From Eledone cirrhosa (taxonomy: Eukaryota), in contig OZ024740.1 in NCBI GenBank assembly GCA_964016885.1, forward strand, positions 252,526,001 through 252,590,000: a DNA stretch of 64,000 nt. The letters are read 5' to 3'. Of this stretch, positions 5,715 to 48,365 are shown one piece after another (within the stretch, counting starts at the first letter, position 1; every line of letters starts with the position of its first letter). A program made the translations under genes and the position numbers. Under the pieces are notes generated by a model. That model made no database searches and was not told where the DNA came from. It saw nothing but the letters and a program-made list of their open reading frames with translations.

Positions 5715-6390
5715 TACATACATATATGTATACAGACGTACAGTAGTATGGATATATATATATATATACATACATGCACACATATATATATGTACGTATG
5801 GATTCACCAAACATTTATTATAATGCTCTGTGTGTTTGTAAACAAACATCCCGTATTAAGCCGCAGTGTCTAGCAACCACCGTTGTTCGTTTGTTCAACA
5901 CTGACAAAGGAACGCTGTACTATTTTCAAGCTTGTCAGCAACGTATACCTTCCTGCCAGATTGTTGAACGTCCGAAAGTATATACTTTCCTTATGCATAT
6001 TAACGGCTGAGTAGCCCAATTTGCATATCGGCCGGGTGCACCGTAAAGTATATACTTTCGGACGTTCAACAATCTGGCAGGAAGGTATACGTTGCTGATG
6101 ATAGCTAACAAGCTTGAAACTAGTACAGCGTTCCTTTGTCAGTGTTGAATAAATGAGCAACGGTGGTTGCTAGACACTGCGGCTTAATACGGGATGTTTG
6201 TTTACAAACACACGGAGCATTATAATAAATGTTTGGTGAATCCATACGTACACATGTGTGCATGTATGAATATATATATACATACTACTGGACGTCTGTA
6301 TACATATAGGTATGTACGTGTACATACTTATATTTACGTAACAGCCGTACTAAGAGTGGGAAATGAAATTTCTTTTCATTTTTTCCGTTT
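5715..6390. mobile_element. Retrozyme-like non-coding element, fold-back copy (arms ~5715-6030 and ~6045-6390)
   Basis: Arms are reverse complements; the same unit occurs at 12786, 41396 and 59110; HHR intact in the right arm, core partly deleted in the left arm. Confidence 0.8.
6090..6130 (+). ncRNA. Minimal type I hammerhead ribozyme
   Basis: CGTTG CTGATGA TAGCT-AAC-AAGCTT GAAA CTAG TA CAGCG; palindromic stem III. Confidence 0.85.
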
Positions 6391-29973: not shown

Positions 29974-30592
29974 CATATATGAATATATATATATATATAT
30001 ATATATGAATATATATATATATATATATGAATATATATATATATATATATATGAATATATATATATATATATATATATGAATATATATATATGAATATAT
30101 ATATATATATATATGAATATATATATATATATATGAATATATATATATATATATATATGAATAAGAATATATATATATGAATAAGAATATATATATATGA
30201 ATAAGAATATATATATATGAATATGAATATATATATATAAATATGAATATATATATATAAATATGAATATATATATATATGAATATATATATATATATAT
30301 ATGAATATATATATATATATGAATATATATATATATATATGAATATATATATATGAATATATATATATATATATGAATATATATATATATATATATATAT
30401 GAATATATATATATATGAATATATATGTATATATATGAATATATATATATGAATATATATATATATATGAATATATATATATATATATGAATATATATAT
30501 ATATATATGAATATATATATATATATATGAATATATATATATATATGAATATATATATATATATATGAATATATATATATATATATGAATAT

Positions 30593-30644
<52 letters not shown>

Positions 30645-30716
30645 GAATATATATATATATATATATATATGAATATATATATATATATATGAATATATAT
30701 ATATATATATGAATAT

Positions 30717-30748
<32 letters not shown>

Positions 30749-30954
30749 GAATATATATATATATATATATGAATATATATATATATATATATATGAATAT
30801 ATATATATATATGAATATATATATATATATATATATGAATATATATATATATATGAATATATATATATAAATATATATATATATAAATATATATGAATAT
30901 ATATATATATATATATATGAATATATATATATATATGAATATATATATATAAAT

Positions 30955-30986
<32 letters not shown>

Positions 30987-31340
30987 GAATATATATATAT
31001 ATATGAATATATATATATGAATTTATATATATATATGAATATATATATATGAATATATATATATATATGAATATATATATATATGAATATGAATATATAT
31101 ATATATATTCATATTTATATATATATATTCATATTCATATATATATATATATTCATATTCATATATATATATGAATATATATATATATATATGAATATAT
31201 ATATATGAATATATATATATATATGAATATATATATATATGAATATATATATATATGAATATATATATATATATATATGAATATATATATATATATGAAT
31301 ATATATATATATATATAAGAATATATATATATATATATTC

Positions 31341-31372
<32 letters not shown>

Positions 31373-31494
31373 GAATATATATATATATATATATATGAAT
31401 ATATATATATATATATATATGAATATATATATATATATATGAATATATATATATATATGAATATATATATATATATGAATATATATATATATGA

Positions 31495-31544
<50 letters not shown>

Positions 31545-31559
31545 ATATATATGTATATG

Positions 31560-31624
<65 letters not shown>

Positions 31625-31677
31625 GTATATATAAATATATATGTATATATATATATATGTATATATAAATATATATG

Positions 31678-31768
<91 letters not shown>

Positions 31769-31821
31769 TTATATATGAATATATATATATGAATATATAT
31801 ATATGAATATATATATATATA

Positions 31822-31870
<49 letters not shown>

Positions 31871-31945
31871 GAATATATATATATTTATATATATATATAT
31901 TTATGAATATATATATATTTATGAATATATATATATATGAATATA
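29974..31945. repeat. ~2 kb (TA)n-TGAA interrupted microsatellite
   Basis: Direct inspection; local orientation flips near 31105-31145 and ~31338. Confidence 0.97.
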
Positions 31946-34585
31946 TGTAGATAAATCTACCAAAAGTTTACGGTAGTGTCCAATCCGTATGAAGAACTCA
32001 ATGTAATCCGGATATCATGAAAAGAGAAGATGCATTCAAAAACTACTTTCGGTGAAAAATAAACAGAAAACAGAGTCAAGATAAATTAATAAAATAATGA
32101 ATAAACAAAGAAACAGTTCCTTATATTAAAAAAATTTCTCCTTTTTTTAGATATAACATCTAAAATCTAATTTAGATATAACATCTAAAATCTATATCAC
32201 ATGGATATTGAAAATTACAATGAGTTCAAAGAACTCAAGAAAAATTATAGAAAAACAAACAATGCGTCACTTACCAACATCAACAACAAAACACACAGCA
32301 TAGTGAATAGACTTAATATTGAAGATAGAACTGAACCTTTGGCATTGAAAAGACCACACTTCAACCTGAAAGATCATAAATATAATTTTAACTCTAATCC
32401 TTCTATAAGACTTATATGCCCTTCCAAATCTGATATTGGAATAATTAGTAAAAAAATTTTAGATAGAGTCATCCCACAACTAAGAAAACATGTTAATTTA
32501 CCACTCTGGGAAAACACATCCCAGGTAATTAACTGGTTTAATAATATTAGAAATAAATCCTCTGCTTCATTTCTACAATTTGATATAGATAATTATTATT
32601 CTTCTATATCACCTATACTCCTGAACAAAGCCTTGATATTTGCTAAAAATAGGTCTAACTTAACTTTGGATGACATTAATATTATTACACATGCTAGACT
32701 AACACTATTGGAATTTCAGAATGAATACTGGACCAGAAACACATATAGTAATCTATTCGATATTACTATGGGTTCAAGCGATTCTGCCCAAATTACTGAT
32801 CTTGTGGGCCTCTTCTTCTTTTTAACATAAATGCTTCCTTTCCCCACCTTAAAGGTGGCTTATATCGTGACGACTGTCTTCTTCTTTCCAATAACCTTAG
32901 CCTCTCAGAGATAGAAAAAAATAAAAAGCTTATTAGAACTTTCCTTAAAGACTATTATAGTCTAGATATTACATTTGAAAACACAAGTAAAGTAGTTAAT
33001 TTCCTAGATATAACATTAGACTTATCTACGGGCATCTACCAACCTTACCATAAACCCAACCAAAATTTACACTACATACACTCACAATCTAATCACCCTA
33101 AATCTATCCTTAAAAACCTTGCATATAATATATCACTTAGAATTTCTAACCTTTCATCTAACCAAGATGTATTTGATAAAAATGCGACCTTTTATAACGA
33201 AGCTCTAGTTAGAAGTGGCCACAAAAATAAATTAGTGTATATACCTTCTAGCAACAACACTACAAACATACAACCTAATATTACCAACAAACACCAAATG
33301 AAACATACACACATAAATGCCACTCACACTATACCCCAAAACACCAACATAAAACCAAATTTCTCTAACTCTTCTAATATAAAGTATAGTAACTCTCAAA
33401 AAACTACTCATCCTACAACTCTAATAAATGTTAATAATAAAACACCTAATAAACAAGCTAAAACACCTAAATCAATAAATCTAACTAAAAATGTGTGTGG
33501 TGAGGTCATTAACAATAATTCTCTTAATAAACATCAGGATGCATCCTATAAAAACAATAAACAACATCGAAACCGTAATAGACGGGTTACTTGGTATAAT
33601 GCTCCATTTAATTTACAAATTAAGGATAATATACCTAAAAAATTCTTTAATATCCTAGAGAAAAACTTACCGCCAAACCACAAATACCATCAAATTTTAA
33701 ATAGATCAACGGTTAAATTCTCCTACTCAACAACCAAAAACATAAAACAAAATATAAGTGCCTATAATGCATATAAATGTAAAAAAAACCATGAGTATAC
33801 CACCAGTACATCAAACTAACCATAATATCTCCTCAGATACAGGATTCACTAAAAGTTGTAACTGTAGAAACAAGGCAAACAGTCCATTAAAAGGAAATTG
33901 CCTTGTTAATAACATAGTATATAAATGTAAAGTTAACACTAAGGACTCAATTTATTCATATATAGGGGCTACCTCTAACAAATTTAAAGTAAGATTTAAT
34001 ACCCACAAACATAGTTTTAAAAATGCCGCACTAGCTAATACAACATCTCTAGCTGAAATAATTAATAGTTATAGAAAGAGGAATATAGATTATGACCTGA
34101 CCTGGAGTGTGCTCAAAAGGGCCATCCCTTATCAAAATAGTAGATATGAATGTAGATTATGTTCCCAAGAACTTTTTGAAATAAGCGACAGGAATTAATA
34201 ATATCGTGTAATCATAAACTGAGAAAAACCTTTAAATATTATAAACCTAATTTAATATACACTTTAGAAATTAATATATAAACTGTTTTTAATTTAGTTA
34301 ACCTATAATTAATATTCTACTACTGATGAACTACATAATTTTACTTTCCTTCTTACAACTATCACTTCCTAAAACTGATACCATTAAGTAAACATATATA
34401 ATGCTTTAACTTCAGGTTATGACTCTATGTATATTATTTATTATTTCTCACTAATAAATTTAATCCCCCCCCCAATAATTATATGTATATGTATGTATAT
34501 ATGAGTGTGTATATATATGTATGTATATATGCATATATGTATATGTATATATATATATATATGTGTATATGTGTGTGTGTATGTG

Positions 34586-37275: not shown

Positions 37276-37540
37276 TACCTGGAGTTGCGACCGATAGATA
37301 GTATTAGCAATTGGAAAGACCAACGGAAACATTGTTCCCTCGGTCCGATTTGACGAAAGTCGATCGTTCCTATATATTATATAATATTTAGTGTTTTAAA
37401 CTCAAAAAGTCATTTACAATTAATTAGCTCAAAGAAAGAAGCATTTCTGAGCCGTGAAATACAAGTTAATATATGAAAAACACATAAGTGTTTTTATTGC
37501 AAAAGACGAAGTTAGCTACAATGAAATAAACTAATTAAAA

Positions 37541-38042
37541 TAAATATAGTTTGTCTGTCTCGATATAATTCAATAAAAACAAACCTATATTGGCAAAAGC
37601 CGTGATTCCTGGACAAATTTAAATTTCAAAATCCAAACCTGCTCCGTAGATGAATTTGAACTTCAAAACCTAAATATGTTTCGCAACGATGGTATAAAAA
37701 GTGAAATATTCAAATCTTCTGTGCTTATCAACAGGAATCCAGAAAAATTAGGACATTTCACCTCCAATAAATTTTGTAGGACTGGTTCACAAGTACAAAC
37801 GCACGAGGTACACAGCTCACTAGCTATCTCATACTCACAGTGCTAGAAATAACAGCCCTTTATATGGGATTAAAAATTAAAAATTTTATACCATCGTTGC
37901 GAAACATATTTAGGTTTTGAAGTTCAAATTCATCTACGGAGCAGGTTTGGATTTTGAAATTTAAATTTGTCCAGGAATCACGGCTTTTGCCAATATAGGT
38001 TTGTTTTTATTGATTTATATTGAGACAGACAAACTATATTTA
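37541..38042. repeat. ~160-bp inverted repeat (37541-37700 and 37884-38042), probable PLE pLTR fold-back
   Basis: Arms nearly identical; minus strand reads CCTG TTGATAA GCA..TGC GAAA CATA TT TAGG (HHR-like). Confidence 0.75.
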
Positions 38043-41000
38043 TTTTAAATAAATATCTTTAAGTCGTTTGGAAGCCTCGACAATGCAAATGGGTAAATCT
38101 CCGGGTAACAAGATCCGGTGGTGGAGAGAGAGATAGATGTAAGTGGGTGTACGTTGAGATGCGTGGTGTGTAAAAATGTGTAAATGTGTAGAAGAAAGAA
38201 GGGAAGAGTATAAAGGATAAAATAAAAATAACAACACAAGAGAGAGTTACCTTGGGAGAGATTTAATAGTCCCTATATATTTCGGATTCACATCCATCAA
38301 CTGGGGTTTTTTTTCCGGGGTAAAGGTTGTCTGTCGGACAGGTGCGAAATGCGTCCTCCGCTGTTTGTTGTTTTGAATATCTGAGGTATTCGGCAGAGCG
38401 CGCGTGCGCGTGAAATGGGGTCGGTCGGGCAGAGGTCAGCGGCCGAATGAGGGAGTGGGGTGGCGCTAGTTGTCAGTCCATTCTCTGCCTGTTTGTTAAA
38501 TGTTACTGTGTGTGTGTGTTGTTGTCTCGCTTGAGTGTGTGTGTGTGTGTGCGTGTGTAGTTGCCTTGTTCCTCTGTATTGGCAGTGTAGTATGTTCGTA
38601 TGGTGGAATGCTACTGTGTGTGTGTGTGTGTAGTTGTCTCGTTTGTGTGTGCGTGTGTTGTGTGTTGCTACATCGTTTGTTAACTTAAACCAGCCATCTC
38701 ATTTCGCTTCTCTCTCATCGGTTGTTTATTTGCGGTTGCAGGCGTTTGATAAAAAGTGCTTCCTTGATACGTAACGTGCCGACGTTTCTTTCAGTCGCTA
38801 GAATTGTGACAATGGGCCTTCCGTCTTTGTTTCCGCATTTGTCTATGTGTTTCCGGAAAGACGAGGCCCTGGTTTTAGTGTGTTCCTTGATCCGGATGTG
38901 CAAAGGTCGGATTGTGCTACCTATGTAGTATTGGTTGCACCTGTCACATTCTATCTTATACACGACGTATGTGTGTAGGCAACAGTTCGCATGGCGTATC
39001 GGTCAGTCTCTGAGGGAGCATGCGTCAGTAGATTTCCCGGGTTTCTTGGAGAGGCATCTTCGCAGGGAGGGGCCTGAGTGGGCCAGGTGGATGTCGAGGC
39101 CCTCCCTCCGTATAGCCTTGCGGATAGCGTTGGTGGTATTCTCGCCCAGGTGTGGCATTTTAAGGAAGCACTTGCCTTGGGCGCCTCTCTGTCTCTTGTG
39201 TCTGGTGTCTCCTATTCTGTCTGTGATCGAGGTAGGGTACCCGTTCGTCTCCAGCACCTCGAGGAATCGCTTGGTATGAGTGACACCACTCGCGGGTTCG
39301 CTGCATCTGTTTTTGATTCGCGCGATCTCGTTCGTGATGTATCCTCTTTTGGCACTGTTAGGGAGGGTGGACTTGTAGTGAACGAACAGGTCCCTGCAGG
39401 CTGCCTTTCGGTAGAAGTTGCAGTGGATCCTTCCCTGTTCCGTGATGTTGATTCGGAAGTCGAGGAGGGCAAGTGACCCGTCTTCGTTGGGGTGTTCAAC
39501 ACTGAAGTTAATGTTCTCGTCCGTGTTGTTGAACGTCTCATAGATTCTGTTCGCCGTGTCTTGGGAAGATGTGAGGATGAGGATATCGTCCACGTACCTT
39601 GAGAAAAAGGCTACAGCGTTGGGGTGGCAGTCGTTGAGTGCCTTGCGTTCGAGGTTGTCCATGTAAGAGATCGCTAGCACACCTGATAGGCTTGATCCCA
39701 TGGGCAATCCCGAGGTTTGTTGGCATGTTTGGTCAAGGAATCCGAAGTAGGTGTTGTCGACGACGATGGATAGGAGTTGGTGGATATCAGTGGTGGTGAG
39801 CCCGAAGCAGTGTAAGTCGGTGGATTGGACGCGTTCCATCAGTATATTGACGGCCGGGAGTGCCGGGACCGAGGTGTAGAGAACGACTACATCAAGGCTG
39901 AAGGCATATCTGTTATTCCTTCTGGTGTCGGGATCCATTTGATGCAGGCGCTTCAACACCTCTTCGGAGCTGTTAACGTGTCCCGGCAAGGTGTCTAAGA
40001 AGGGTTTGAGTATTCTGGCTAGGAGCCATAAAATTTTGTAGAGTGGTCCCTCCACGCTCGATACGATGGGCCTGATCTTCAGGTCGGGTCCCTGTTTGTG
40101 CGTTTTCACGAGGTGGTAGATTGCGGGTAGTCTGCTGTTGCTCGTGAGGAGGTTGTATCTCAGGTTCTTCGGGAGCTTCCGCCGGTCGCAGATGTTGGTC
40201 CAGGCGGCGTTGATGTGCTCTCTGTTGATGACGCAGAATTCTTTTCCCTTATCGGAGGGGAGATAGATGTGGTTCTTCGATTTTAGGTTGGAGAGTGTGG
40301 TGAGTTGAGATTTGGTGAGGTTATGTGTTGTGCGTGTGTGTTTGTGAAGTATATCCGAGATGGAGTGTTTTAGCCTGATGAGTTTAGTGTCGAGTTCGTG
40401 GTTGGTGGGTGGGGGGTGGAGTGGGTTGTCGGGGTGGTAAGTGGGGAACTTGGGGTGGGTTGCGTGGGGGCTGTTATTTTCTGTGGCGCTGTTGATGGCG
40501 GTCACCCATTTAAGTTGGTAAGCGGCTCAACAAAAGTTGGCCTCGATGTTGAGTTTGAGTCTGTCGTCGAGACGTTGTGAGACGATGAACTTGGGTCCGA
40601 GGCGTAGGAGTTTCAGCTCGTCGCTCGTGAGAGTGCAGGTTAGGTCGATGACCAGGTGCGTCGCATCGTTGAGGTATGGCTCGGTGTTGGTGGATGCGGC
40701 GGTGGCGGTTGTTAAGTTGTTGTTTCCGACGTGGTTCTGGTCCGTCTGTTCGTTAGTGTCGATGTTCTCGTCGTGGAGTTTAGACAAGATCCACTCATAT
40801 TTTCGCTTGAGCTGTTTTTTCTCGTATTGGACTCTGGAGTGGTAGCACTGGTCGATTGCTTTAGTGATTTTCAGGAGCAAGTCCCCAGGTGCTATTGGCA
40901 GTCGATGTGTCCGCTCTGAGAGTGTCCGCTTATGGACGTGTAATTGGTGGTTGAGATGTCTCAGGATCTGTTTAATACACATGCGATGTATGCGGTTAGT

Positions 41001-42768: not shown

Positions 42769-43903
42769 GTAAAGAAAACAGAACCCAGATCCCCTCAGGG
42801 AAATGGCCTTGCTCAGTATGTAGGAAAGGTGTAGGTAGGAACTCCATTCTTTGCCCCAAATGCAAACAATGGGTACACAAGAGATGTAGCGGGATCTCAG
42901 GAAGCTTAATTAAGAATGTAGGATTCACATGCAGCAGCTGTGCTGAAACAGCAAGCAAACAGCCACAGGAAACAAGTACCACCAATCTCTGGGAGGGCCC
43001 TGTAGAAACAGTAGACAGCTTCTGCTACCTAGGTGACCGAATTAGCAACGGAGGTGGGTGCTCAGAAAGTACAATAACTAGGGTAAGAACGGGATGGAAG
43101 AAGTTTAGGGAACTACTACCACTGCTAGCTGCAAAAGGCTTCTCCCTCAGAATGAAAGGCAGACTGTATGATGCGTGTATCCGAACAGCGATGTTGCATG
43201 GTAGTGAGACCTGGGCGCTGAAGGTGGAAGACTTACGTAGATTAGAGAGAAACGAAGCCTGCATGCTCCGATGGATGTGTAACAGTAATATACGTGAACG
43301 ACAAAGCATAAATGAATTGAGAGAGAGACTGAGCATAAGAGGAATCAAATGCTGCGTGCAGGAGAGGCGGTTACGCTGGTATGGACATGTGATGCGTATG
43401 AAGGATGACAGCTGCATAAAAAGGTGCAGAGCACTAGAAGTTGATGGAAACCGCGGAGTGGGGAGACCCAAGATGACTTGGGATGAGGTGATAAAAGCCG
43501 ACCTTACCCAACTACACCTCTCAAAGTCAATGACACACGACCGTGACTTCTGGCGTCACGCAGTAATACAGGGTACCCGACCTCCCATGGGTACATGCTG
43601 AAGCATATAAACAATATGCCCCCCCCCCCCACCGCAAGGTGGTCGTGGAGGTGCCACGGCAAAAAAGCACCCAGCCCACACTGTAAAGTGGACGTGTAGG
43701 CGCCACGAAAAAGCACCCAGCACTCACTGTAAATGAGGTTGGTGTTAGGAAGGGCATCCAGCTGTAGAAATCAAGCCAGATCAGTTCCTGTATGAGCAAG
43801 GCATGGTCAGCCGACCAGACACTGCCCACAACAGGACAACCCGTCTAACCCATGCTAGCGTGGAAGAACGGACGTAAAACGGTGATGATGATGATGATGA
43901 TGA
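42768..43903 (+). mobile_element. RTE LINE 3' portion (PHD-like finger to tail)
   Basis: WPCSVC..CPKC..HKRC..CSSC; RLRWYGHVMR; (GAT)n. Confidence 0.92.
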
Positions 43904-43995: not shown

Positions 43996-44137
43996 AATAT
44001 ATATATATATACATGGCTTAGTTCGAATCTAGCTGTCGAAACAGCTGGAACTCAGCCGTCGGCGTCCCAACTCTTTTCCTATATTTGTATATCTATATAT
44101 AGAAAGCATGTATATTTAGAAAACAGTGAGTGGAATT

Positions 44138-44184
44138 TGAAAATTGAATTAGGTCTCACCGTAACTTTGACTAAATTTAATAGT

Positions 44185-44240
<56 letters not shown>

Positions 44241-44800
44241 ATGTTGAAAAGGTGACACGCCGGAGAGAGATGTACAGTGCGCTATCAGGAAAACAGGGAC
44301 GGGACCACCAGTGTGTGGAATCTGTAACCTGTGAAAGGCGGACTATGGACGCGATAATTGGGAATGTGGATTGGAGCATAAATGAATACCTTTGTAACTA
44401 TATAGTTATAAAGGTATTTATTTAAGCTTTAATTTGTATTTTTAATTGTCGTGTCTGTGGTCTGCCTTTCATAGGTTGTAGATTCCATGCACTGGTGTTT
44501 TTTTCACTGTGTGTCTCTCTCTGGTGTGTTGCCTTTTCAACATATTGTATTTTAAAGAGCTCAGGATTTCTTCTCCTTTGAGCACATTATTTACAGGGAA
44601 TAGCGAGGGCTTATGGCTCCGTCAATTTATCGTGATATATATATATATTTACACAGAGGTATCCACTGTAAGTTGGATATATATATATATATATATATAT
44701 ATACTTGCCCATCTTTTTTTGTTCTGTGGGTTTATATGTCCCATTATTATTAGACTGTTGAATTTAGTCAAAGTTACATTGAGACCTAATTCAATTTTCA
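44138..44800. repeat. 48-bp inverted repeat pair (44138-44185 and 44753-44800) enclosing hairpin 1
   Basis: tgaaaattgaattaggtctca..gtaactttgactaaatt and its reverse complement. Confidence 0.85.
44235..44549 (+). ncRNA. Long G.U-rich fold-back hairpin 1 (putative hairpin RNA or hyper-edited retrocopy)
   Basis: ~140 paired positions centred at ~44401; 29 G.T wobbles, 0 A.C, 1 transversion, one internal loop. Confidence 0.7.
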
Positions 44801-44813
44801 TATATATATATAT

Positions 44814-45137
44814 AAACAAGAAGTGTAAGTCAACAGGTTGAAGTTACCTTTGTTTATTCGTGGCCGCTGCTATGTGTATTTCAGTGATAAGCCATTGTTC
44901 AACTGCTATGGCCTCATCAGGCGGTGGGAACTTTAAGAGAAGAAACAGGAAAACATAATGTTGTAAGATTTTACCTTGTTAATCTATAACAACATTGTTT
45001 TCCTGTTTTTTTCTGTTCAAGTTCTTGCCGCCTGATGGGGCCATGGCAGTTGAGTAGTGACATATCACTTAAATGTATATGGCAGCGGCTGTGAATAAAC
45101 AAGGCTAATTTTGACCTGTTGACTTACACTTCTTATT
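44814..45137 (+). ncRNA. Long G.U-rich fold-back hairpin 2 built from an HHR-like PLE pLTR
   Basis: 116-nt aligned core: 19 G.T, 1 A.C, 3 transversions; CTGATGA..GAAA on the minus strand of the left arm, CTGATGG in the right arm; AATAAA. Confidence 0.7.
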
Positions 45138-45236
45138 TTTACATTATTCCGGAGTAAACAGACCCACCTGTGCACTTCGTTGAGTGTTCTAACCTGCATA
45201 CTGAAGTGTCGGTAAACAACCAACACATACTCAAAG

Positions 45237-45288
<52 letters not shown>

Positions 45289-45367
45289 ATAGGTATATAT
45301 ATGTATAGGTATATATATGTATATATATGTATATATATATGTATATGTATTTATATATATATATATG

Positions 45368-45405
<38 letters not shown>

Positions 45406-45453
45406 TGTATATATATATATGTATATGTGTGTGTATATATGTATATGTATATG

Positions 45454-45493
<40 letters not shown>

Positions 45494-45599: not shown

Positions 45600-47286
45600 A
45601 AGGATGAATATAAAATGAAAGTGCTTTTGTTAAAAAAGGAATTTATTAGGTATTGACATATGTTTCTGTAACAGACCGAATACCTATGTATCGCTGCTTG
45701 CGTAATCATATAATGTTAGCAAGTATTCGATAGCAAATGTATAATCAGTTGTCACTTCTTCAGAGATTTTGGATAAACTGGATAAAATCAGAAAAATTGA
45801 AGTATTTATATTAGTAAAAGAGGAAGGAACAGAGGGGATAGAATATGACAGATGGTAAAATAATTTACTGCTAAACAAGTATATAATGGGTTTTTAATGA
45901 GAATACCATGAGTAAATCTAAATAAGAATTTTGGGAGTGCCAATTTTAATCTCTACCTGACCAACTGGACAGTGGACAGGGCTGGTCATTTGGTGCAGTA
46001 GTATTAATTATAAAGTGTCAATTGGGGAAGGGGGAGATTTCGATTGCTACTAAATAACATCAATGCTAGTAGCCAGCTGGTATATGCATTAGGGAATTGA
46101 ATCAAGAAATCAGAAATCTCATTTTATCTATAGCAGTTTGTATTAAAAGGTAAATAATAGAAGAGTTGATAGAATTAAGACTAATAAAGAATGTTCATAT
46201 CTATTTTGACAATCAAACGGGGATAGAGACAGGCGTTCAATCCTGGTAGTATTTATAATATGAAAATGTAGATTTTAAGCGATGGTTACAGTATAACGAT
46301 CGCTCTATTCTGTTATTTAATAAAATGTTTTTGGATTTCATAATACAAAATAATTCTACATTACATAATTTACAAAATTCCTGTCCATTGGTATACGGGG
46401 GGGCAGCCGCTATTATATCCCATTTTAGGTGAAATTGTTGGTTATTTTCACGCAGCTGCCAAACCTTGTCTGCGAGTCTTGTTACATAACGCTGGTTTTC
46501 ATGTTTTATCGAATAACGATGTCTATAAAGGCGTGATTTGAAGGAGGTGGCTGTAGATCCCACATAGTACCACTTCTGTCTATCCGATTCGATAGTACAT
46601 TTGTATACGATGTTACGTTCAAGACACTGATTGTTCAACGGACACATTCCTGGTTGGACACAGTTGCAATTATAATTTTGCGTTGTTGTATTGCCATGGA
46701 TGGGTTGATGAGGTTGCTTATGTAGGACAGGATGTTGTTTGTTGTTTTGTGATGTTATAGCTAATGTTTTACGTGTATTGTTATGTGTTGGAAGGCGTTT
46801 ATACAACCGTTTTGCGTTAAGCTTTTTTATATGTTGTTCAATATTAGGGGCGGTTGAATATGAAAGTCGAATAGTGTTAGGGTTTAAGATTTTATTATAT
46901 TTATGTGATGTTGGAAAGTGTTTTCTAACTAATCGAAAGAATTTTGAGGGTAGATTGGTTTTAATAGATTTGTTATAGACCGGGTTGTACCAGATATACT
47001 CCCTACATCGCCTTCTGTTTGGTGGTGTGCGACTATTATTGTGTCTATTGCGGTAGTGTATGTATGGTGGTGATTCTGTGCTATTTCTACTCCTATGTGA
47101 TTTATTTTGGGTGTTTTGGTGATCTTTGACTATATACTCTATATTATCTAGGTGACCGGCTTTCCTAAGTGCATCATCATAATACTCGGCATGTTCTTTG
47201 AAGGTTTGTTGGTTGGACGATAGGCGGGAGATTCTAAGAGAAACGTTTCTAGGGATGGATTTAATTATAGAGAGTGGATGGTTAGG
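45600..47286 (-). mobile_element. Naiad-type PLE, 5'-truncated (GIY-YIG plus tail)
   Basis: NHP, IWYNPVY, CNCVQPGMCPLNNQC, IVYKC..YVGST, CKLCNVE, CNHR. Confidence 0.9.
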
Positions 47287-47758
47287 CATCTCTAACAAAA
47301 CACACCCACGTCCCACCACCCCCACCCCATCCACACCGCCCCTTTCAATGTAAAGTTATGTTGGTGCCACAACATCCAGGCCGAAACAAATGAGATCGTG
47401 TAGGTGTCACGACAAAAAACACACAGTCCACGCTGTAATGTGGCCGTGTAGGCAACACGGTTAAAACCTCCCAGTCCCACACTGTAAATGTGGTTGGTGT
47501 TAGGAAGGGCATCCAGCTGTAGAAAACCCGCCAGACAGTCCACGCTGTAATGTGGCCAAGTAGGCAACACGGTAAAAACCTCCCAGCCCCACACTGTAAA
47601 TGTGGTTGGTGTTAGGAAGGGCATCCAGCTGTAGAAAACCAGCCAGACAGTCCTATGCGAGCAAGACAATCACTCTTGCCTCAAGTAGGAAAACCCCCGT
47701 CCAAACCCATGCAAGCGTGGAACACGGACGTTAAACGTTGATGATGATGATGATGATG
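47284..47758 (+). mobile_element. RTE 3' UTR with duplicated unit and (GAT)n tail
   Basis: Matches 42178-42658. Confidence 0.9.
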
Positions 47759-48047: not shown

Positions 48048-48365
48048 TTATGAAAATAAAACAAAGAACCCTTCAATACATCAAAAGTCTTTATTAGCCA
48101 ACAATGTTTCGTCCTATTAAGGACTCATCAGGGCAATCAAAACTACAAGAAGCACTATCGGCCAATACAAGCCTAAAACTCCGAAGAATATGGAGTGTAC
48201 ATACACTAAAGTATTGGAAGATTATCTTCCAATACTTTAGGCTTGTATTGGCCGATAGTGCTTCTTGTGGTTTTGATTGCCCTGATGAGTCCTTAATAGG
48301 ACGAAACATTGTTGGCTAATAAAGACTTTTGATGTATTGAAGGCTTCTTTGTTTTATTTTCATAA
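48048..48365. mobile_element. Palindromic solo pLTR with two divergent canonical hammerheads (+ core at 48282-48306)
   Basis: Arms 48048-48177 and 48236-48365 differ at 2 positions; ATTGCC CTGATGA GTCC-TTAATA-GGAC GAAA CATTG TT GGCTAATAAA. Confidence 0.85.

What the first reader, a model, noticed from the sequence alone, without database searches (positions are those of the whole stretch)
44235..44549. Genomic hairpin in which every transition mismatch is G.T on one strand: fossil A-to-I hyper-editing?
Seen: aligning the arms by hand gives 29 transition differences, all G.T on the + strand (20 with G in the left arm, 9 in the right), none A.C, plus 1 transversion. Neutral decay of an inverted repeat should give about 50:50. 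Read as A>G, the changes cluster (aattAAA>aattGGG, ttAAa>ttGGa), none has a 5' G neighbour, and the inferred ancestor is ordinary AT-rich sequence. Established: ADARs hyper-edit long dsRNA, disfavour a 5' G, and are very active in coleoid cephalopods. Inference: a hyper-edited dsRNA was reverse-transcribed back into the genome. The alternative is a hairpin-RNA (endo-siRNA) gene under selection that tolerates only G.U.
Basis: partly seen in the sequence, partly recalled or inferred. Interest (0 to 1): 0.9.

Follow-up and report, generated by a model that had tools for sequence, protein, structure and literature searches.

The report
RNA editing fossilised in octopus DNA
This stretch of an octopus chromosome is a copy of the region just behind the Nup155 gene in which about a quarter of the A's in two hairpins, and almost none outside them, read G, likely because an ADAR-edited RNA was reverse-transcribed and inserted into the genome; at least eight other places in this genome carry the same mark.

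Summary
Confirmed and larger than reported. The hairpin has 29 G.T, 0 A.C and 1 transversion mismatch, and a second G.T-only hairpin lies 270 nt downstream. Both sit in a ~1.45-kb copy of a donor locus on another chromosome (C7), 677 nt behind the stop codon of Nup155, same strand. Against the donor, 50 of 204 hairpin A's are G versus 2 of 192 outside (p 1e-13), with no C>T. A is the commonest letter at these sites in 19-24 family copies. Neighbour bias fits ADAR (5'U 39%, 5'G 8% edited). Hairpin-RNA selection is refuted. Pattern searches found seven more A>G-hypermutated genomic copies (up to 76 of 94 A's), and a comparison set yielded an eighth. Three siblings of one unedited locus carry different edits; the eighth copy has a 17-bp target-site duplication and a 5' inversion whose changes flip to T>C, as reverse transcription predicts. 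Best reading: ADAR-hyper-edited read-through RNAs were retroposed repeatedly. Raw reads could not test an assembly artefact. Precedent: somatic insertions in L1-induced human cells and avian retroviruses; my 10 searches found no report from an animal reference genome.

The parts
44003..45489 (+). Copy of G000:C7:213436 to about 214900, which starts 677 nt behind the Nup155 stop codon. The 5' end is at about 44003; the 3' end lies somewhere inside the TA/TG tract (not resolvable)
   Evidence: (44010-44190: 99% to C7, next best of 40 scored 81-90% and partial)
44235..44549 (+). Hairpin 1: fold-back of a high-copy repeat; 30 of 107 donor A's read G, plus 44436 in a piece the donor lacks
44817..45135 (+). 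Hairpin 2: fold-back of a second high-copy repeat; 20 of 97 donor A's read G, plus 45091 and 45103 in a piece the donor lacks
44139..44800 (+). Outer stem of about 48 bp (44139-44187 with 44754-44800) enclosing hairpin 1; identical to the donor, not edited
44550..44816 (+). Linker between the hairpins, near-identical to the donor: one A>G (44668, in a small hairpin), two other substitutions and one gap
45238..45489 (+). TA/TG tract homologous to the donor's tract; contains the 3' end of the copy; no poly(A) tail seen
42773..43896 (+). 3' fragment of a very young LINE with a GAT-repeat tail (RTE-like by recall; Pfam gave only a PHD-type finger). A separate, unedited insertion, not from C7
   Evidence: 5616 matches; 95.9-100% to the 30 fetched copies, 24 of them 99% or more; 97.5% to C7's copy, 0 shared variants
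46237..47355 (-). Neighbouring 372-aa open frame, Penelope-like by a recalled GIY-YIG-type motif; Pfam found no family. Context only

Best explanation
The locus is a copy of the region behind the Nup155 stop codon on C7 whose two hairpins carry 50 A>G changes on the gene's sense strand, likely written into the genome when an ADAR-hyper-edited transcript was reverse-transcribed and inserted. Steps. (1, shown) Two fold-back repeats lie 0.9-1.8 kb behind the stop codon and fold into long near-perfect stems. (2, inferred) A 3'UTR or read-through transcript covers them, and ADAR deaminates about 25% of their A's. (3, inferred) A non-LTR retroelement reverse transcriptase, probably primed at a genomic TA tract annealed to the RNA's UA tract, copied about 1.45 kb and stopped before the coding region; inosine was read as G. 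(4, shown) The donor kept A. The same route produced at least eight other insertions; six of them lie directly upstream of a ~600-nt SINE-like element that likely carried them along.
For: Donor vs copy: A>G at 30/107, 20/97 and 2/192 A's in hairpin 1, hairpin 2 and outside (Fisher p 1.1e-13); 11 other substitutions in 1197 columns; no C>T. Family outgroup: 53 of the 78 differences from the commonest letter are A>G (19 and 24 copies). Copy and donor share many derived letters. Context: edited fraction by 5' base U 29/74, A 13/67, C 6/36, G 2/26; 3'G not favoured (p 0.53). This matches the hyper-editing motif in PMC5625713 (passages: upstream G depleted, reduced downstream-G preference in octopus, strongest hyper-editing signal in octopus and frog). 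Strand: six Nup155 tblastn blocks in order on + of C7 (96% to Octopus sinensis Nup155). Other copies: all 7 hits show A>G excess. Five of them give 76/94, 41/60, 32/54, 73/154 and 17/60 A>G with 1-5 other changes; 5'G is edited at 20/76 vs 219/344 (p 3e-9); edit sets are non-nested in 9 of 10 pairs; 30 comparison copies show 0-3 A>G. Unedited sibling locus C3:374.567 Mb vs copy on C403: 10/61 and 15/56 A>G confined to the stem parts of two small hairpins, 17/60 in a repeat tail that has a 94% inverted partner 4 kb away, and 1/145 in the element with no inverted partner within 40 kb. L168 has a 17-bp target-site duplication and an inverted 5' piece with 10-11 T>C, the rest A>G (15, 5, 4). A double C>T control pattern gave 0 hits against 5 for double A>G in a subfamily of 9096.
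Against: No raw read confirms the edited letters (the runs do not show the donor allele either). No RNA run was listed, so neither transcription nor editing of the donor was seen. The window copy itself has no poly(A), no detectable target-site duplication and no spliced junction, so its RNA route rests on the editing pattern and on L168. The 48-bp outer stem and the terminal 18-27 bp of each hairpin are unedited, unexplained here. L144's edit set is nested in L141's over 53 shared sites. Which enzyme did the copying is not shown.
Confidence: 0.9

Rival explanations
1. Assembly artefact: edited cDNA reads were built into or polished onto the contigs, or a sequencing error specific to hairpins.
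For: No raw-read confirmation; the densely edited bins have no depth in 4 of 4 runs laid. One of the other edited copies is on a small 74-kb contig (C403).
Against: The expressed-gene donor is the unedited copy, the reverse of what RNA polishing would give. The window copy keeps 12-nt and 18-nt pieces the assembled donor lacks and lacks 19 nt it has. Edited copies sit in different flanks on several chromosomes with different edit sets; one has a target-site duplication and a sign-flipped inversion. The runs lack the donor allele too (every contig over 44611 shows another letter), so their blank has no power.
Confidence: 0.04
2. DNA-level duplication followed by strand-specific A deamination of DNA (ADAR on RNA:DNA hybrids, or an unknown deaminase on single-stranded DNA hairpins), or later gene conversion by an edited cDNA.
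For: ADARs can edit the DNA strand of hybrids in model substrates (PMC12925331, passage). The window copy lacks classical retrocopy hallmarks. A one-stranded hairpin DNA intermediate would also confine changes to stems.
Against: Editing the template strand of an R-loop, or the first cDNA strand, would give T>C on the sense strand; A>G on sense is seen. Edits follow intramolecular pairing, including a partner 4 kb away. No deaminase of A in DNA hairpins is known to me (recall). Gene conversion by cDNA still needs an edited RNA.
Confidence: 0.05
3. A hairpin-RNA (endo-siRNA) gene under selection that tolerates only G.U pairs.
For: All transition mismatches stay pairable on the + strand; the + fold is z = -26.6.
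Against: Selection for G.U would accept C>T at G-C pairs as well: the donor hairpins hold 102 C's and 7 CpG, yet 0 C>T against 50 A>G (p 1.8e-15). About 25% of A's changed while the background is about 0.9%, so this is not filtered neutral mutation. No Rfam match in the window.
Confidence: 0.01

Closest known systems
ADAR-edited processed-pseudogene insertions in L1-induced human cells (PMC11702581, passages read; supplementary Fig. S8 not seen)
   Same: Clustered A>G/T>C restricted to inverted repeats in the 3' UTR of a retroposed mRNA, read as ADAR editing; 3 of 235 pseudogene insertions.
   Different: There: somatic clones with induced L1 expression, inverted Alus. Here: a reference assembly of an octopus, apparently constitutional, with fold-back repeats, no coding part or poly(A), up to 81% of A's changed, and repeated copies from one source.
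A-to-G hyper-edited avian retroviruses (Rous-associated virus, avian leukosis virus; as reviewed in PMC12925331, passage)
   Same: Nearly 50% of A's changed to G in an LTR or an inverted repeat, fixed through reverse transcription.
   Different: Viral genomes in infected cells, not host transcripts inserted into chromosomes.
APOBEC 'DNA editing' fossils in LTR retrotransposons (PMC4866542 and PMC2873906, passages)
   Same: Deaminase clusters preserved in genomic copies and detected against paralogs.
   Different: G>A made on cDNA by APOBEC. That screen kept G-to-A alignments in LTR elements and found its 19 invertebrates at noise level. Here the change is A>G, follows RNA pairing and has ADAR context.
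Octopus RNA hyper-editing (PMC5625713, passages)
   Same: Same motif, same kind of substrate (long inverted repeats), and octopus is among the two highest species.
   Different: Described in RNA reads only; here the pattern is in DNA.
Retroprocessing of edited RNA in plant mitochondria and kinetoplastids (recalled, no call)
   Same: Edited RNA letters become genomic.
   Different: Other editing chemistry, organelle genomes, replaces the gene in place.

Membership tests
ADAR hyper-edited sequence | Dense cluster of A>G only, on one strand | tested here: met
   50 A>G, 0 C>T, 7 other changes in the hairpins
ADAR hyper-edited sequence | Confined to double-stranded RNA | tested here: met
   50/204 inside vs 2/192 outside; replicated at C3/C403
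ADAR hyper-edited sequence | 5' G depleted, 5' U/A favoured | tested here: met
   2/26, p 0.03; 20/76 vs 219/344, p 3e-9 in five other copies
ADAR hyper-edited sequence | Edited strand is the transcribed strand | tested here: inconclusive
   Same strand as Nup155, 677 nt behind its stop; transcription that far not observed; AATAAA-type signals lie inside hairpin 1
ADAR hyper-edited sequence | Inosine or A>G seen in RNA of the donor locus | not testable with these tools
   No RNA holder listed
Retroposed copy (TPRT product) | Source locus elsewhere, copy collinear and 5'-truncated | tested here: met
   (no Nup155 coding match in the window)
Retroposed copy (TPRT product) | Target-site duplication | tested here: inconclusive
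   None found for the window copy, whose ends lie in TA tracts; 17 bp found at L168
Processed pseudogene | Poly(A) tail and/or lost introns | tested here: not met
   Ends in a TA/TG tract; no exon junction in the copy. So not filed as a classical processed pseudogene
LINE 3' transduction from the C7 LINE | Adjacent LINE derives from the LINE next to the donor | tested here: not met
   0 shared variants, 22 C7-only variants
Hairpin-RNA / endo-siRNA gene | G.U arises from both A>G and C>T; small RNAs from the stem | tested here: not met
   0 C>T; small RNAs not testable
Germline (inherited) insertion | Present in DNA reads and in other individuals | tested here: inconclusive
   Runs X1-X4 had no power; presence in the assembly and divergence from the donor only suggest it

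The most novel reading that the evidence does not exclude
In octopus, ADAR hyper-editing is a recurring source of inherited DNA change: edited read-through RNAs are retroposed into the germline often enough to leave many insertions, each a single-molecule record of germline ADAR activity, and editing of self-pairing UA tracts helps create the one-sided TA/TG microsatellites that fill this genome.
Probability: 0.45. Interest if true: 0.92.

Novelty: new variant of a known kind. Interest (0 to 1): 0.82.

Why it matters
A-to-I editing is treated as non-heritable. These loci show a route by which it likely becomes DNA sequence in the animal group with the most editing. Each insertion records one RNA molecule's full edit pattern, presumably from germline or early-embryo cells, with the unedited donor still in the same genome, so germline ADAR activity and context can be read from an assembly alone. 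It also gives a simple genome-wide screen (A>G clusters against paralogs; G.T vs A.C skew in inverted repeats) and a caution for RNA-editing pipelines, since edited reads can map perfectly to such copies. The copies seen are non-coding repeats and probably functionless; the interest is the process.

Tried and rejected
Raw reads: the look-up of sequencing runs listed 6 runs, best share 0.20, no RNA holder listed. Laying 4 of them gave only repeat-family contigs and no donor allele: no verdict. DNA search with the LINE fragment returned nothing, too common. LINE 3' transduction from C7 rejected. Other edited copies in the hairpin-1 family: none; 1417 exact unedited matches, and only the window has several G's among 1, 8 and 10 hits. 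A random 400-kb sample (40 stretches; about 215 kb of the 464 kb queried, window included, had a close homologue in hand) gave no edited element; the L132 hits are a low-complexity tract. L072 was flagged but is 97-98% identical to other copies, so not edited. L115 (1 G.T vs 11 A.C; 0 vs 7) looks like divergent repeat copies by eye and was not pursued. The G.T-only 1.75-kb inverted repeat near L141 owes its skew to TA tracts; its unique arms are near-identical. My note that five edited copies share a private variant was wrong: it marks a 9096-copy subfamily. L192 shares only the junction motif. Rfam: no match. Pfam: nothing for the two Nup155 exons or the Penelope-like frame. Earlier scan findings: none. 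The count of copies edited on the antisense strand of the repeat core was not obtained, so (16253 unedited matches) is a denominator only.

Full report
1. Observation. The hairpin is real. A global alignment of the arms, scored equally for both transition types, gives 114 Watson-Crick pairs, 31 G.T pairs on the + strand (22 with G left, 9 right), 1 A.A, no A.C and a 19-nt gap. The + strand folds at -204.1 kcal/mol and the - strand at -131.1. A second hairpin at 44817-45135 has the same skew. In 758 kb of this genome I found 201 inverted repeats; apart from one low-complexity tract, only these two had p < 0.001.

2. The donor. Both hairpins are fold-back forms of high-copy repeats (592 and 1621 candidates, 40 scored each). 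The best other hit for both is one place, C7:213.6-214.6 kb, and it has the same flanks. The match runs from window 44005 to about 45489, and the 5' flank has only this one near-identical partner among 40 scored candidates. Against it, A>G occurs at 30 of 107 A's in hairpin 1, 20 of 97 in hairpin 2 and 2 of 192 outside (p 1.1e-13). There are 11 other substitutions in 1197 columns, none C>T. In the donor's predicted fold 46 of the 52 changed A's are paired.

3. Direction and lineage. Family copies polarise the changes: 53 of 78 differences from the commonest letter are A>G, and most of these G's occur in 0-2 of 18-24 copies. Window and C7 share derived letters at 17 of the 29 positions listed, so C7's lineage is the source. 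The window copy keeps a 12-nt and an 18-nt piece that C7 lacks, with three more A>G in them, and lacks 19 nt that C7 has. It therefore comes from an older or other allele and is not a duplicate of the assembled C7 sequence.

4. Strand and context. Upstream of the donor lie spliced exons of Nup155 on the + strand (last exon 96% identical to Octopus sinensis Nup155; six tblastn blocks in order). The copied segment starts 677 nt behind the stop codon, so the A>G changes are on the gene's sense strand. Edited fraction by 5' neighbour is U 0.39, A 0.19, C 0.17, G 0.08, with no significant 3'G preference. PMC5625713 (passages) reports upstream-G depletion in all species studied, reduced downstream-G preference in octopus, and the strongest hyper-editing signal in octopus and frog.

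5. How it got here. The copy holds no coding sequence and no poly(A), and both ends lie in TA-rich sequence shared with the donor. I infer priming at a genomic TA tract annealed to the RNA's UA tract and 5' truncation. A target-site duplication cannot be seen in such flanks. The LINE fragment just upstream is a separate, very young, unedited insertion: it shares no variant with the LINE beside the donor and has a similar TA-rich motif on both sides.

6. It is not alone. Within the hairpin-1 family the window is the only multi-G copy found. A pattern on a common LINE/SINE 3' core with two fixed A>G changes gave 7 hits, each with at least one further G in the motif and all with A>G excess. A second pattern about 75 nt away returned 5 of the same 7, in a subfamily of 9096 matches whose first 100 listed are unedited; a double C>T control gave 0. 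These five carry 76/94, 41/60, 32/54, 73/154 and 17/60 A>G with 1-5 other changes, 5'G is depleted (p 3e-9), and their edit sets are non-nested in 9 of 10 pairs. Three share a junction with an unedited locus on C3. Against it, the C403 copy is edited only in the stems of two small hairpins and in a repeat tail that has a 94% inverted partner 4 kb upstream, while the ~600-nt element without such a partner has 1 A>G in 145 A's. One of the 30 comparison copies, L168, proved to be an eighth case: a 17-bp target-site duplication, the same ~600-nt element at the 3' end, A>G in the upstream pieces, and T>C in an inverted 5' piece. That sign flip is what twin-primed reverse transcription of an edited RNA gives (mechanism recalled). 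A random 400 kb held no edited element, so they are rare: about 5 in 9096 for one subfamily and one strand, a lower bound.

7. Microsatellites. Two sibling copies have TA/TG tracts of exactly 457 nt that align without a gap and differ at 49 places, all A/G, in both directions (32 and 17). Slippage does not give that; editing of a self-pairing UA tract would. In random DNA 12 of 26 long TA tracts are at least 90% one-sided in their interruptions, but slippage and the elements' own repeat tails also explain that, so the genome-wide claim is untested.

8. Rivals. Selection for G.U pairs fails on 0 C>T among 102 C's. Deamination of DNA in an R-loop or of first-strand cDNA predicts T>C on the sense strand, the opposite sign. 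An assembly artefact is unlikely for the reasons in sections 3 and 6, but it is not excluded by reads: the four runs laid show only repeat-family contigs, and every contig over position 44611 differs from both window and donor.

9. What is known. PMC11702581 (passages; supplementary figure not seen) reports 3 of 235 pseudogene insertions with ADAR-type clusters in inverted Alus of the 3' UTR in L1-induced human cells. PMC12925331 (passages) reviews A>G hyper-edited avian retroviruses. PMC4866542 and PMC2873906 (passages) cover APOBEC G>A fossils; the former selected G-to-A alignments in LTR elements and found invertebrates at noise. PMC7703385 (passages) finds edited coleoid sites often replaced by G, and the terms 'retro' and 'reverse transcri' do not occur in it. 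Ten searches (listings only unless named above) showed no report of ADAR-hyper-edited retrocopies in an animal reference genome, but the library lacks most subscription journals.

10. Verdict. Observation confirmed and first interpretation supported (0.9). Mechanistically this is a known kind of event, seen here as apparently inherited and repeated insertions in an octopus: new variant of a known kind, interest 0.82. Shown: donor, polarity, confinement to stems, ADAR-like context, eight further loci, one with retroposition hallmarks. Inferred: transcription of the donor, ADAR as the enzyme, the reverse transcriptase used, germline origin.

Noticed in passing
L138 (G000:C1:71.324 Mb), 311 nt of a LINE/SINE 3' tail: 76 of 94 A's read G with a single other difference from the nearest unedited copy, the most complete conversion seen.
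   Followed up: yes
L168 (G000:C1:5,732,616-5,735,647), 801-2670: Edited composite insertion with a 17-bp target-site duplication and a 5' inversion carrying T>C.
   Followed up: yes
L189 / L194-L197 (G000:C3:374.565-374.568 Mb): Unedited sibling or source of three differently edited copies on C13, C22 and C403.
   Followed up: yes
L138, L140-L144, L168, L189: ~600-nt element downstream of the edited parts: SINE-like element with almost no A>G that seems to carry long upstream flanks with it (5' read-through); family not identified.
   Followed up: partly
L141 and L144, 457-nt TA/TG tracts: Gap-free, 49 differences, all A/G: a sign that UA tracts were edited. Many TA tracts in this genome are one-sided in G or C (12 of 26; window 30001-32000 has GC skew 0.74).
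   Followed up: partly
L003-L008, L012; window 48048-48365, 5801-6242, 37532-38051: Fold-back palindromes of short repeats are common, several near-perfect; window 48048-48365 holds a motif resembling a hammerhead core (recalled; no Rfam match), suggesting Penelope-type origin.
   Followed up: no
window 44139-44187 with 44754-44800: A 48-bp outer stem predicted in the donor fold is entirely unedited, as are the terminal 18-27 bp of both hairpins.
   Followed up: no
G000:C7:213 kb and C3:374.6 Mb (contig length 378.9 Mb): Both unedited source loci lie near chromosome ends.
   Followed up: no
window 42773-43896: Very young LINE subfamily: 5616 exact matches of one 26-mer, most fetched copies 99-100% identical.
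   Followed up: partly
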